Below are positions 7,858 to 16,827 of a DNA stretch of 64,000 nt, one piece after another; positions within the stretch are counted from its first letter, which is position 1; each line of letters starts with the position of its first letter. Location of the stretch: NCBI GenBank assembly GCA_043228905.1, contig JBHGNT010000011.1, positions 14,818,001 to 14,882,000 on the forward strand, written 5' to 3'. The position numbers and the translations under genes are program-made. Source of the DNA: Azolla caroliniana. Its lineage: Eukaryota; Plantae; Polypodiophyta. Under the pieces are notes generated by a model. That model was not told the origin of the DNA. It was given only the letters and a program-made list of their open reading frames with translations, and searched no databases.

Positions 7858-7970
7858 CCTGCCTCGCTAACAACCCACTCTATGCCCCCAAGTCTTCGTA
7901 AGGGGTATAAAATCTGGCGGTAAGAGAAACAATGGCCTAGAAGATGACAGCAGATTTGCCACGCCTTTCG

Positions 7971-8042
7971 CGCCTATGCCGAGGATCGAACCCGGGTCAC
8001 CCGCGTGGCAAGCGGGAATAATCACCACTATACTAAAACGAC
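7971..8042 (-). pseudogene. tRNA-Asp-derived copy 1, anticodon mutated to GCC
   Basis: 7 differences from consensus, acceptor stem broken. Confidence 0.85.
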
Positions 8043-8332
8043 ATGTTGGTGTTGGAGGAAGTGTAGTATAGTGGTGACTACTACTTGTTCGGATCATGTA
8101 CCGGAATGTCGAAAACATGGCCCGCTGTCGTCCCCAATACATGGTACATGACGATGTTCGTTCGTATATGAACTGGAATACCCATGTGTGCACTTGGACG
8201 AGATCATGGTAATATGTACCCTGCCTCGCTGACGACCCACTGTATGCCCTCAAGTCTTTGTAAGGGGTATAAAATCTAGCAGTAAGAGAAAGAATGGCCT
8301 AGAAGATGACAGGAGATTTGCTCCGCCCTTTG

Positions 8333-8404
8333 CACCGTTGTCGGGTATCGAACCCGGGTCACCTGCGTGACAGGCGGGAATACTCACCACTATACTACAA
8401 CGAC
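8333..8404 (-). tRNA. tRNA-Asp(GTC) copy 2, stem mismatches (possible pseudogene)
   Basis: 4 differences from consensus. Confidence 0.6.
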
Positions 8405-8686
8405 ATGTCGGTGTTAGAGAAAGTACTCTCTGTACTACTGGCTCGAACCATGTAATGGAATGTCGAAAACATGGCCCAGTTTCGTCGCAAATACATGTTA
8501 TGCGAAGAAGTTCGTCCGCATATAAAATGCAATACCGAAGTGTGCACTCGGACTGGATCATGGTAGTATGGACCCTCTCTCGTTGACAACCCACTGTACG
8601 CCCCCAAGTGTTTGAAAGGGATAGAGAATCCAACGGAACGAGCAACAATGCCCTAGAAGATGACAGGAGATTTGCCCCGTCCTTCA

Positions 8687-8740
8687 CGCCGTTGCCGGGG
8701 ATCGAACCCGGGTCCATACTCACTACTATACTACAACGAC
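8687..8740 (-). pseudogene. tRNA-Asp copy 3 lacking the anticodon arm (18-nt deletion)
   Basis: 54 nt; acceptor, D and T arms retained. Confidence 0.9.
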
Positions 8741-9018
8741 ATGTCGGTGTTGGAGAAAGTATCCTTTGTACTACTGGCTCGTACCATGTACTGGAATGTC
8801 GAAAACATGACCCGATTTCGTCGCAAATACATGTTATGCGAAGATGTTCGTCCACATATGATCTGCAATACCCATGTGTGCACTCAAACTGGATCATGGT
8901 AGTATGGACCCTCTATCGTTGACAACCCACCGCCCCCAAGTGTTTGAAAGGGATAGAGAATCCAACAGAGTGAGCCACAATGTCCTAGAACATGACAATA
9001 GATTTTCCCCGTCCTTCA

Positions 9019-9090
9019 CGCCGTTCACGGGGATCGAACCCGGGTCACGCACGTGACAGGCGGGAATACTCACCACTATACTATAACGAC
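9019..9090 (-). pseudogene. tRNA-Asp(GTC) copy 4, degenerate
   Basis: 5 differences from consensus. Confidence 0.75.
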
Positions 9091-9319
9091 ATGTTCGTGT
9101 TGGAGGATGTATCCTCTATACTACTTGCTACGACCATGGATCAGAATGTCGAAAATATAGCTTGGTTTCGTCGCCAATGCATGTTATGTGACGATGTTCA
9201 TCTGCATATGAACTGCAATTCGCATGTTTGCACTGGGACGAGATCATGGTAATATAGAGATTCCCACGGACCGAGATAGAATGCCCTCGAAGATGACATC
9301 AGATTTGCCACGCCTTTCG

Positions 9320-9391
9320 CGCCTATGCCGGGGATCGAACCCGGGTCACCCGCATGACAGGAGGGAATACTCACCACTATACTACAATGAC
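9320..9391 (-). pseudogene. tRNA-Asp(GTC) copy 5, degenerate
   Basis: 5 differences, acceptor stem broken. Confidence 0.75.
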
Positions 9392-9680
9392 ATGTTGGTG
9401 TTGGAGGAAGTGTAGTATAGTGGTGAGTACTACTTGTTCGGATCATGTACCGGAATGTCAAAAACATGGCCCGGTGTCGCCCCAATACATGGTACGTGAC
9501 GATGTTTGTTCGCATATGAACTGGAATACCCATGTGTGCACTTGGACGAGATCATGGTAATATGTACCCTGCCTCGCTGATGACCCACTGTATGCCCCCA
9601 AGTCTTCGTAAGGGGTATAAAATATGGTGCTAAGAGAAAGAATGGCCTAGAAGATGATAGGAGATTTTCCCCGCCCTTCG

Positions 9681-9752
9681 CACTGTTGCCGGGGATCGAA
9701 CCTAGGTCACCCGCGTGACAGGCGGGAATACTCACCACTAGACTACAACGAC
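9681..9752 (-). pseudogene. tRNA-Asp(GTC) copy 6, degenerate
   Basis: 5 differences from consensus. Confidence 0.7.
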
Positions 9753-10034
9753 ATGTCGATGTTAGAAAATGTACCCTCTGTACTACTGGGTCGAACCATG
9801 TAATGGAATGTCCAAAACATGGCCCAGTTTCGTAGCAAATACATGTTATGCGAAGATGTTCGTCCACATATGAACTGCAACACCCAGGTGTGCACTCGGA
9901 CTGGATCATGGTAGTATGTACGTTCTCTCGTTGACAACCCACTATACGCCCCCAAGTGTTTGAAAAGGATAAAGAATCCAACGGAACGAGCAACAATGCC
10001 CTAGAAGATGACAGGAGATTTGCCCCATCCTTCA

Positions 10035-10106
10035 CGTCGTTGCCGGGAATCGAACCCGGGTCACCCGCGTGACAGGCGGGAATACTCACCACTATACTAC
10101 AACGAC
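10035..10106 (-). tRNA. tRNA-Asp(GTC) copy 7, intact cloverleaf
   Basis: 2 tolerated changes (G71A gives a U-A pair; C60T). Confidence 0.9.
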
Positions 10107-10388
10107 ATGAAGGTGTTGGAGAAAGTATCCTCTGTACTACTGGCTCGGACCACGTACTGGAATGTCGAAAACATGGCCCGGTTTCGTCGCAAATACATGT
10201 TATGCGAAGCTGTTCGTCCACATATGAACTGCAATACCCATGTATGCACTCGGACTGGATCATGGTAGTATGGACCCTCTCTCGTTGACAACCCACTGTA
10301 CGCCCCCAAGTGTTTGAAAGGGATAGAGAATCCAACAGAGCGAGCAACAATGCCCTAGAACATTACAGGAGATTTGCCCCGTCCTTCA

Positions 10389-14378: not shown

Positions 14379-14668
14379 ATGTTGGTGTTGGAGAAAGTAT
14401 CCTATAGTGGTGAGTACTACTTGTTCGGATCATGTACCGGAATATCGAAAACATGGCCCGGTGTCGTCGCCAATACATGGTATGTGGCGATGTTCGTTCG
14501 CATATGAACTGGAATACCCATGTGTGCGCTTGGACGAGATCATGGTAATATGTACCCTACCTCACTGATGACCCACTGTATGCCACAAGGTCTTAGTAAG
14601 GGGTATAAAATTTGGCAGTAAGAGAAAGAATGGCCTAGAAGATGACAGGAGATTTGCCCCACCCTTCG

Positions 14669-14740
14669 CACCGTTGTCGGGTATCAAACCCGGGTCACCC
14701 GCGCGACAGGCGGGAATACTCACCACTAGACTACAACGAC
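14669..14740 (-). pseudogene. tRNA-Asp(GTC) copy 20, degenerate B box
   Basis: 6 differences including C56T. Confidence 0.8.
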
Positions 14741-15021
14741 ATGTCGGTGTTAGAGAAAGTATCCTCTGTATTACTGGCTCGAACCATGTACTGGAATGTC
14801 GAAAACATGGCCCGGTTTCGTCACACATATATGTTATGCGAAGAAGTTCGTCGGCATATGAACTGCAATACCCAGGTGTGCATTCGGACTAGATCATGGT
14901 AGTATGAACCCTCTCTCGTTGACAACCCACTGTACGCCCCAAGTGTTTGAAAGGGATACAGAATCCAACGGAACCAGCAACAATGCCCTAGAAGATGACA
15001 GGAGATTTGCCCTGTCCTTCA

Positions 15022-15093
15022 CGCCGTTGCCGGGGATCGAACCCGGGTCACCCGCGTGACAGGCGGGAATACTCACCACTATACTACAACGAC
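15022..15093 (-). tRNA. tRNA-Asp(GTC) copy 21, exact match to the array consensus
   Basis: Full 72-nt cloverleaf with A and B boxes. Confidence 0.96.
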
Positions 15094-15371
15094 ATGTCGG
15101 TGTTGGAGAAAGTATCCTCTGTACTACTGGCTCGGACCATGTACTCGAATGTCAAAAACATGGCTCGGTTTCGTCGCAAATACATGTGATGCGAAGCTGT
15201 TCGTCCACATATGATCTGCAATACCCATATGTGCACTCAGACTGGATCATGGTAGTATGGACGCTCTCTCGTTGACAACCCACTGCCCCCAAGTGTTTGA
15301 AAGGGATAGAGAATCCAACAGAGCGAGCAACAATGCCCTAGAACATGACAGGAGATTTGCCCCGTCCTTCA

Positions 15372-15443
15372 CGCCGTTGCCGGGGATCGAACCCGGGTCA
15401 CTCGCGTGACAGGCGGGAATACTCACCACTATACTACAACAAC
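15372..15443 (-). tRNA. tRNA-Asp(GTC) copy 22
   Basis: 2 differences, one anticodon-stem mismatch. Confidence 0.72.
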
Positions 15444-15725
15444 ATGTCGGTGTTGGAGAAAGTATCCTCTGTACTACTGACTCGAACCATGTACTGGAAT
15501 GTCGAAAAAATGGCACGGTTTCGTCGCAAATACATGTTATGCAAAGAAGTTCGTCCGCATATGAACTGCAATACCCAGGTGTGCACTTGGACTGGATAAT
15601 GGTAGTATGTACCGTCTCTTGTTGACAACCCACTGTACGCCCCCAAGTGTTTGAAAGGGATAGAGAATCCAACGTAGCGAGCAACAATGCCCTAGAAGAT
15701 GACAGGAGATTTGCCCCGTCCTTCA

Positions 15726-15797
15726 CGCCGTTGCCGCGGATCGAACCTGGGTCACCCGTGTGACAGGCAGGAATACTCACCACTATACTACAACAAC
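15726..15797 (-). pseudogene. tRNA-Asp(GTC) copy 23, degenerate
   Basis: 5 differences from consensus. Confidence 0.72.
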
Positions 15798-16079
15798 ATG
15801 TTGGTGTTGGAGGATATATCCTCTGTACTACTTGCTCCGACCATGTACCGGAATGTCGAAAATATAGCTCGGTTTCGTCGCCAATGCATGTTATGTGACG
15901 ATGTTCGTCCGCATATGAACTGGAATAGCCATGTGTGCACTCGAACGAGATCATGGTAATATAGTCCTTCCCTCGCTGACGACCCACTGTACGGCCCTAA
16001 GTGTTTTAAAGGAATAGAGAATCCCACAGACCGAGAAAGAATGCCCTCGAAGATGACATGAGATTTGCAACGCCTTTCG

Positions 16080-16151
16080 CGCCTATGTCGGGGATCGAAC
16101 CCGGGTCACCCGCATGACAGGCGGGAATACTCACCACTATACTACAACGAC
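16080..16151 (-). pseudogene. tRNA-Asp(GTC) copy 24, acceptor stem broken
   Basis: 4 differences from consensus. Confidence 0.7.
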
Positions 16152-16424
16152 ATGTTGGTGTTGGAGGAAGTATAGTATAGTGGTGAGTACTACTTGTTCG
16201 GATCATGTACCGGAATGTCGAAAACATGGCCCGGTGTCGTCCCCAATACATGGTACGTGACGATGTTCGTTCGCATATGAACTGGAATACCCATGTGTGC
16301 ACTTGGACGAGATCATGGTAATATGTACCCTGCCTCGCTGATGACCCACTGTATGCCCCCAAGTCTTCGTAAGGGGTATAAAATCTGGTGGTAGGAGAAA
16401 GAATGGCCTAGAAGTTCACACCCC

Positions 16425-16448
16425 TACTCACCACTATACTACAACGAC
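16425..16448 (-). pseudogene. tRNA-Asp 5' fragment (copy 25) at a deletion junction
   Basis: Only the first 24 nt remain, next to 10-nt filler TTCACACCCC. Confidence 0.8.
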
Positions 16449-16726
16449 ATGTCGGTGTTGGAGAAAGTATCCTCTGTACTACTGGCTCGGACCATGTACT
16501 CGAATGTCGAAAAGATGGCCGAGTTTCGTCGCAAATACATGTTATGCGAAGCTGTTCGTTCACATATGATCTGCAATACCCATGTGTGCACTCGTACTGG
16601 ATCATGGTACTATGGACCCTCTCTCGTTGACAACCCACCGCCCCCAAGTGTTTGAAAGGGATAGAGAATCGAACAGAGCGAGCAACAATGCCCTAGAAGA
16701 TGGCAGGAGATTTGCCCCGTCCTTCA

Positions 16727-16798
16727 CGCCGTTGCCGGGGATCAAACCCGGGTCACCCGCGTGACAGGCGGGAATACTCACCACTATACTAGAACAAC
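16727..16798 (-). pseudogene. tRNA-Asp(GTC) copy 26
   Basis: 3 differences including C56T and G7C. Confidence 0.65.
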
Positions 16799-16827
16799 AT
16801 ATTGGTAAGAGATAGATAGATAGAGAT

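What the first reader, a model, noticed from the sequence alone, without database searches (positions are those of the whole stretch)
7858..16806. Satellite-like tandem array of 26 tRNA-Asp(GTC) genes
Seen: 24 full-length copies, one arm-deleted copy and one fragment, head to tail in ~355-bp units. Copies 7, 12, 14, 16 and 21 keep an intact cloverleaf with A/B boxes and an upstream CAA motif. Known: plant tandem tRNA clusters exist (Arabidopsis Pro and Ser-Tyr-Tyr clusters) and are largely silenced; I do not recall an Asp array of this kind. Inference: a birth-and-death tDNA satellite that could be a dosage reservoir, a tRNA-fragment source, or a TFIIIC-bound boundary between the TE nest and the gene island.
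Basis: partly seen in the sequence, partly recalled or inferred. Interest (0 to 1): 0.8.

Follow-up and report, generated by a model that had tools for sequence, protein, structure and literature searches.

The report
Fern satellite built from tRNA-Asp genes
A fern genome carries hundreds of head-to-tail copies of one aspartate tRNA gene on seven chromosomes; most copies are decaying, but the tRNA has stayed almost unchanged while its spacer drifted by about 30%, so a minority of copies likely still supply tRNA even though they lack the usual stop signal.

Summary
The array is real: 26 head-to-tail ~354-bp units on the minus strand (24 full tRNAs, one lacking the anticodon arm, one 5' fragment). 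Only 5 of 24 are intact, 1 is perfect, 20 keep GTC. It is the right part of a 45-unit array split by a Copia insertion, in a fern genome. The same unit family forms arrays at 11 or more loci on 7 contigs (about 590 hits seen), against 11-13 ordinary dispersed tRNA-Asp genes. Recent duplicates decay neutrally, with a methylation-type spectrum. Between arrays the majority tRNA differs at 3 of 72 columns, the spacer at 136 of 253. Arrays carry a tRNA variant rare among dispersed genes, which argues against repair from them. Best reading: birth-and-death with purifying selection on a few working copies. Unlike Arabidopsis clusters, units have no nearby poly(T) or AT-rich leader; the first T4 lies about 216 nt downstream. 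Expression is untested. The boundary idea is not supported: genes flank both ends and the transposons sit inside the array. Lys, Arg, Thr and Ile arrays also occur, which may explain the extreme tRNA counts reported for Azolla.

The parts
7858..16806 (-). 26 head-to-tail units of the tRNA-Asp repeat (right part of a 45-unit array; 19 more units at G000:C11:14804861-14812330)
15022..15093 (-). copy 21, perfect tRNA-Asp(GTC), identical to dispersed genes on C1 and C5
10035..10106 (-). copy 7, intact cloverleaf (2 tolerated changes)
11847..11918 (-). copy 12, intact (G57A)
12547..12618 (-). copy 14, intact (G57A); same recent sub-family as 12 and 16
13253..13324 (-). copy 16, intact (C32T, G57A)
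8687..8740 (-). copy 3, anticodon arm deleted
16425..16448 (-). copy 25, 5' fragment only
11847..13324 (-). recent two-unit higher-order duplication (intact and broken copies alternate; spacers 96-99.6% alike within each type)
7451..7857 (-). LTR of a 13,523-bp Copia element (with nested inserts) that splits the array; partner LTR lies left of the window, K2P 0.038
7858..7862 (+). 5-bp target-site duplication of the Copia insertion, inside an array spacer
16808..16929 (+). about 125-bp element, SINE-like by eye, with an 87% identical copy at the far left end of the full array

Best explanation
This is a head-to-tail array of a 354-bp unit holding one tRNA-Asp gene, part of a family with arrays on seven contigs, in which most copies are decaying while a minority likely still make tRNA-Asp and so keep the family's tRNA unchanged. 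Shown: unit structure, shared spacer ancestry, neutral decay of recent copies, near-zero tRNA change between arrays, no proximal terminator. Inferred: units multiply by unequal exchange in blocks of 1-5; most are methylated and lose function by C-to-T decay; lineages with a working tRNA are favoured and become the long-term parents. Predicted: Pol III would read about 216 nt past the tRNA to a T4 in the spacer, or on into the next unit, and RNase P/Z would cut out the tRNA.
For: Majority sequence of five arrays differs at 3 of 72 tRNA columns versus 136 of 253 shared spacer columns (Fisher p 3.5e-16, indicative only since arrays are related), while singletons are equally dense in both parts (200 in 72 columns, 623 in 253). 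Held-out test on 321 units: tRNA/spacer distance ratio 1.12 for the closest pairs, 0.27 for the farthest; 75 reciprocal nearest pairs 0.043 versus 0.037. The drop in divergence coincides with the tRNA's ends, and 46 of 49 positions outside the A/B boxes are invariant. 13 perfect C11 units fall in 8 spacer lineages, 16% apart on average, and their flanks have lost as much CpG as those of broken copies. 65 of 96 differences in the window's tRNAs are C>T/G>A, with 0.10-0.125 per CG/CHG site versus 0.017 per A/T site. Arrays carry G20a in 370 of 389 copies and G67 in 0 of 389, while 9 of 11 dispersed genes with normal flanks carry A20a and/or G67.
Against: No expression or Pol III data. 0 of 24 window copies and 10 of 389 array copies have T4 within 30 nt; leaders are 51-58% AT against 70-76% in two dispersed genes. 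CAA and TATA-like motifs are not conserved across arrays. The distal T4 (266 of 320 units) is no rarer than no CAA by tRNA state and has about a 7% chance of surviving in five arrays without selection (65 of 124 A/T columns conserved). Within the window alone, selection is not visible: 1 perfect copy of 24 at a mean of 4 differences, and copies 12/14/16 are one recent lineage. In C10 and C15 the many perfect copies are matched by equally common spacer haplotypes, so recent amplification explains them. The C3 majority has itself decayed at 3 positions.
Confidence: 0.62

Rival explanations
1. Functionless satellite whose tRNA part is repeatedly reset by gene conversion from dispersed genes or from reverse-transcribed mature tRNA.
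For: No terminator or AT-rich leader; neutral short-term decay. An Asp-primed LTR family exists here and has copied whole tRNA plus CCA on C8. The C15 array majority has CCA after the tRNA.
Against: Donor variants are missing: 9 of 11 dispersed genes carry A20a and/or G67, arrays 6 of 389 and 0 of 389. Perfect copies in C11, C10, C3 and C19 are not followed by CCA (0 of 32). Homogenisation among arrays alone would let the tRNA drift. Two dispersed genes do match the array variant, so this is weakened, not excluded.
Confidence: 0.17
2. Selfish satellite: TFIIIC/Pol III binding at intact A and B boxes stalls forks and favours amplification, with no need for the tRNA product.
For: Would explain the missing terminator and why several isotypes (Lys, Arg, Thr, Ile) formed arrays with unrelated spacers. 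Fork pausing at tRNA genes is recalled from yeast work, not from a call.
Against: Acceptor stem, anticodon arm and discriminator are conserved too: 46 of 49 non-box positions invariant between arrays. Broken and intact copies are amplified together in two-unit blocks.
Confidence: 0.1
3. Source of tRNA fragments or siRNA aimed at Asp-primed retrotransposons.
For: Eight inspected loci carry an Asp primer site next to a shared LTR-like end. About a quarter to a third of C11 units (59 of 192) carry an inverted copy of the D arm in the leader that could fold back.
Against: Only 9 exact primer-site matches lie outside the C15 array, few targets for hundreds of copies; full cloverleaf conservation is not needed for fragments.
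Confidence: 0.05
4. TFIIIC-bound chromatin boundary between a transposon nest and genes.
For: The right end lies within about 1 kb of an apparent gene start and 2.2 kb of an F-box exon; tRNA barriers are known in yeast (PMC13578239, section 21).
Against: Genes flank both ends; a Copia and a solo LTR are inserted inside the array; the array shows methylation-type decay; the review states that this function is not described in plants.
Confidence: 0.04

Closest known systems
Arabidopsis tRNA-Pro homoclusters and Ser-Tyr-Tyr cluster (PMC7544208, PMC12308677)
   Same: Tandem tDNA units; methylated and mostly silent there, methylation-type decay here; the SYY cluster is reactivated in root tips, a precedent for conditional use.
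   Different: Arabidopsis clusters keep AT-rich promoters and poly(T) (median about five T); these units do not. Here one isotype, 45 units locally, about 590 hits at 11 or more loci on 7 contigs, about 83% of scored copies broken.
Maize 28x tRNA-Ile array and other angiosperm homoclusters (PMC11700998, PMC13437025)
   Same: Single-isotype tandem arrays with uniform flanks.
   Different: The clustered isotypes named in the passages read are Pro, Ser, Tyr, Gln, Ala, Ile, Cys; clustered fraction usually under 5% in land plants. Here array copies outnumber dispersed Asp genes about 45-fold, and intact ones about 5-fold.
Azolla filiculoides tRNA excess: more than 7500 genes and more than 10,000 tRNA-like sequences (PMC13578239; PlantRNA 2.0 preprint 10.1101/2021.12.21.473619)
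   Same: A fern with inflated tRNA counts; this genome is a small-genome fern with about 22 large contigs, which would fit a water fern (inference).
   Different: Those texts ascribe the excess to genome duplication and repeats and name no arrays or isotype in the passages read. I recall that the supplement of Li et al. 2018 notes tRNA islands and a tRNA-Asp excess in Azolla; that file could not be read, so the excess itself may be in print.
5S rDNA arrays (PMC13578239, section 21)
   Same: Pol III genes in long methylated tandem arrays with only a subset active; gene conserved, spacer free.
   Different: 5S units end in a T run (recalled); these arrays are far more heterogeneous and sit at many loci.
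tRNA-derived SINEs and SINE-derived satellites (recalled)
   Same: tRNA head followed by an unrelated body, no proximal terminator, high copy number.
   Different: The head here is a complete, canonical tRNA; no A-rich tail or per-unit target duplication is seen; copies are tandem, not interspersed.

Membership tests
Plant tDNA homocluster | 5 or more genes of one isotype within 5 kb | tested here: met
   24 Rfam-positive copies in 8.9 kb; the 5 intact ones span 5.06 kb
Plant tDNA homocluster | canonical tRNA with A and B boxes | tested here: met
   majority and copy 21 equal dispersed genes on C1 and C5; 5 of 24 copies intact
Plant tDNA homocluster (Arabidopsis type) | poly(T) terminator within 25-30 nt | tested here: not met
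   0 of 24 in the window, 10 of 389 in all arrays scored
Plant tDNA homocluster (Arabidopsis type) | AT-rich leader and CAA at -10..-3 | tested here: inconclusive
   leader 57% AT; CAA in 20 of 42 copies at this locus, 3 of 43 on C3; these motifs are weaker in non-flowering plants (PMC13578239, section 20)
Plant tDNA homocluster (Arabidopsis type) | DNA methylation and silencing | not testable with these tools
   only the mutation spectrum points to past CG/CHG methylation
Birth-and-death multigene family | many pseudogenes decaying neutrally | tested here: met
   322 of 389 copies broken; close-pair ratio 1.1
Birth-and-death multigene family | gene part constrained over deep time relative to flanks | tested here: met
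   3 of 72 versus 136 of 253 columns
Birth-and-death multigene family | surviving copies are functional | not testable with these tools
   needs tRNA-seq or Pol III ChIP
SINE-derived satellite | tRNA head diverged outside the A/B boxes | tested here: not met
   46 of 49 non-box positions invariant between arrays
SINE-derived satellite | dispersed monomers of the same unit | tested here: inconclusive
   all listed spacer hits lay in C11 arrays, but only 40 of 70 candidates were scored
tRNA-snoRNA dicistronic gene | known RNA family in the trailer | tested here: not met
   no spacer match in Rfam beyond tRNA look-alikes; no conserved fold

The most novel reading that the evidence does not exclude
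This fern draws much of its tRNA-Asp from terminator-less, rDNA-like satellite arrays, transcribed as long-trailer or multi-tRNA precursors, and has repeatedly turned single tRNA genes (Asp, Lys, Arg, Thr, Ile) into such satellites; this would account for the extreme tRNA gene numbers of water ferns.
Probability: 0.25. Interest if true: 0.75.

Novelty: new variant of a known kind. Interest (0 to 1): 0.52.

Why it matters
A 2026 review lists Azolla's 7500 tRNA genes as an extreme case with no demonstrated cause and describes land-plant tRNA genes as mostly dispersed. This genome shows a concrete route to such numbers: local tandem amplification of single isotypes, mostly dead copies. That warns against reading gene counts as tRNA supply. 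The family also gives an unusually clean birth-and-death signature with a built-in neutral control (the spacer), and copy-specific SNPs and a 216-nt trailer make its expression directly testable, including whether plant Pol III genes can work without a nearby terminator.

Tried and rejected
Sequencing-run search: no RNA holder listed, no evidence either way. Two further DNA runs gave 0 contigs on the spacer, no proof of absence. Junction of array and unique flank: not checked with reads. Branch-by-branch rate comparison on a tree: not obtained; pairwise and column tests were used. Hidden RNA in the spacer: Rfam negative; consensus fold only -1.46 kcal/mol over 14 units (above column shuffles but too weak to call a structure). 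Origin of the unit from an LTR primer site: flanks are unrelated to the Asp-primed LTR end. Shared spacer with other isotype arrays: 0 hits in 20 regions. Excess of perfect copies over Poisson was discounted for C10 and C15 after the spacer-haplotype control. The stem coordinates were wrong for two arms and were redone. Long ORFs across the array were not followed up. Earlier scan findings were not available. Literature searches found no description of fern tRNA-Asp arrays; the library lacks most subscription papers.
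Full report
Observation. The window holds 26 head-to-tail units between 7858 and 16806, spacing 297-392 bp. Each carries a tRNA-Asp on the minus strand; 24 pass the Rfam tRNA cut-off, copy 3 lacks the anticodon arm and copy 25 is a 5' fragment. Four full copies have lost the GTC anticodon. The spacer and its variants are in contigs from two separate DNA studies.

Setting. A neighbouring acyltransferase has its best full-length identities with Adiantum and Ceratopteris proteins (53-58% against 44-50% for seed plants), so the host is a fern. 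The genome is 523 Mb with large contigs up to at least C22; a water fern is likely but this is inference. The window shows only part of the array: 19 more units lie to the left. The gap is a 13,523-bp Copia element with a 5-bp target duplication inside a spacer and LTRs 0.038 apart; a solo LTR interrupts the left part. Genes lie on both sides of the full array, so it does not sit between transposons and genes. Both ends abut an about 125-bp direct repeat, 87% alike. Of the 38 units compared, each has an 86-94% spacer match in a much larger cluster 8 Mb away on the same contig (about 180 copies), so this array is likely an offshoot of it.

Family. The perfect 72-mer occurs 50 times in the genome, 48 in arrays; a 26-mer with up to 2 mismatches occurs 546 times. 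In the DNA I fetched there are 448 hits of 25 nt or more in the first set of arrays and 141 in further ones, at 11 loci on C3, C5, C10, C11, C15, C16 and C19; this is a lower bound and includes fragments. The spacers are homologous, 66-80% identical between array majorities on different contigs. Ordinary dispersed tRNA-Asp genes with AT-rich leader and T run number 11 among those inspected; two more candidates were not inspected and two terminator-less decayed singles were left out. About 67 of 389 ungapped array copies are intact; 59 gapped or partial hits were not scored.

Evolution. Recent duplicates decay neutrally: in 321 aligned units, binned by half of the spacer columns and measured on the other half, the tRNA/spacer ratio is 1.12 for the closest pairs, and 75 reciprocal nearest pairs give 0.043 against 0.037. 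The changes look like deamination of methylated C: 65 of 96 in the window are C>T or G>A, concentrated at CG and CHG. Over deep time the picture reverses: tRNA distance levels off near 0.12 while spacer distance reaches 0.38, and five array majorities differ at 3 of 72 tRNA columns (all in C3) against 136 of 253 spacer columns. Conservation covers the whole cloverleaf and stops at its ends. On C11, 13 perfect units sit in 8 spacer lineages, 16% apart on average, with flanks as decayed as those of broken copies. Against this, the window alone shows no clear selection, and in C10 and C15 recent amplification accounts for the perfect copies. Amplification works on blocks: a two-unit repeat in the window and a five-unit repeat to its left.

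Selection or repair. A majority that stays canonical needs an anchor. Repair from dispersed genes predicts their variants in the arrays. 9 of 11 dispersed genes carry A20a and/or G67; arrays have A20a in 6 of 389 and G67 in 0 of 389. Whole-tRNA copies made by an Asp-primed LTR family on C8 do carry those variants, so they are probably in the tRNA pool. This favours an anchor inside the arrays, that is, working copies, though two dispersed genes share the array variant and could serve as donors.

How a copy could work. No window copy has T4 within 30 nt; in the intact ones the first T4 is 68 or 216-217 nt downstream. A T4 at the homologous site is in 266 of 320 units, which is weak evidence for a terminator. 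Plant RNase P and Z can cut tRNAs out of long precursors (recalled from tRNA-snoRNA genes and tRNA-gRNA constructs; no call). So a long-trailer or read-through precursor is the predicted route. Nothing here shows transcription.

Comparison. Arabidopsis Pro and Ser-Tyr-Tyr clusters keep their cis-elements and are silenced by methylation (PMC7544208, passages read); the SYY cluster is reactivated in root tips (PMC12308677, abstract and outline). Surveys name Pro, Ser, Tyr, Gln, Ala and Ile clusters, the longest a 28-unit Ile array in maize (PMC13437025, passages and section 10; PMC11700998, passages; PMC12652284, passages). Azolla is cited with more than 7500 tRNA genes and more than 10,000 tRNA-like sequences, with general explanations only (PMC13578239, abstract, passages and sections 5, 20, 21; PlantRNA 2.0 preprint, passages). 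In PMC6786969 I saw main-text passages and the spreadsheet supplements' search; its main supplementary PDF was too large. I recall that it mentions tRNA islands and an Asp excess in Azolla, which would lower novelty of the excess but not of the array anatomy. PMC6317226 was seen as a listing only. Eight searches found no description of such arrays.

Beyond Asp. Spot checks of 20 tRNA-rich regions found arrays of Lys-TTT (50 copies seen on C5, 368-bp period), Arg-TCT, Thr-TGT and Ile-TAT with unrelated spacers, also mostly without a near T4. Array formation is thus a genome-wide habit, not special to Asp.

Verdict. It works like a birth-and-death tDNA family in satellite form and meets the cluster definition, but fails the terminator feature of Arabidopsis-type clusters: a new variant of a known kind. 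Interest 0.52; the bolder reading, that such arrays are a main tRNA source, has probability 0.25.

Noticed in passing
G000:C8:16322600-16328700 (L117) and C8:6302493 (L124): Whole tRNA-Asp plus CCA joined to the end of an Asp-primed LTR-like element; eight copies in a 968-bp tandem array at one site, and a single copy with A58T at the other, which looks like reverse transcription through the primer's m1A58.
   Followed up: partly
L101-L103, L140 (C5:17.91-18.02 Mb), L116, L105, L107-L110, L118-L119, L104: Tandem arrays of tRNA-Lys(TTT), Arg(TCT), Thr(TGT) and Ile(TAT) with spacers unrelated to the Asp unit.
   Followed up: partly
window 8043-8080, 9392-9430, 11206-11245, 13661-13700, 14023-14062, 16152-16190: A spacer sub-family carries an inverted copy of the tRNA's D-arm region in its 5' leader (59 of 192 C11 copies), probably from template switching at the palindrome at the tRNA 5' end; it could fold back on the tRNA.
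   Followed up: partly
window 16808-16929 and G000:C11:14804177-14804543: About 125-bp element with A/B-box-like motifs at both ends of the full array; both array ends break near the tRNA 5' boundary, which would fit insertion of a circular multi-unit block.
   Followed up: partly
all arrays scored: 55 of 389 copies have changed anticodons, 30 ATC and 11 Glu-type (CTC/TTC) on an Asp body; they could misread if expressed.
   Followed up: no
window 18986-20155 (+), 21145-23651 (-): F-box/kelch exon and a two-exon BAHD acyltransferase (HCT-like) right of the array.
   Followed up: partly
L112, L115, L120: Organelle-type or bacterial-type tRNA stretches on nuclear contigs C5, C16 and C21, likely organellar inserts.
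   Followed up: no
window 28075-28515 and 53685-54135: Short tandem repeats of 146 bp (3 copies) and 54 bp (8.4 copies, within a Gypsy-type LTR region).
   Followed up: no
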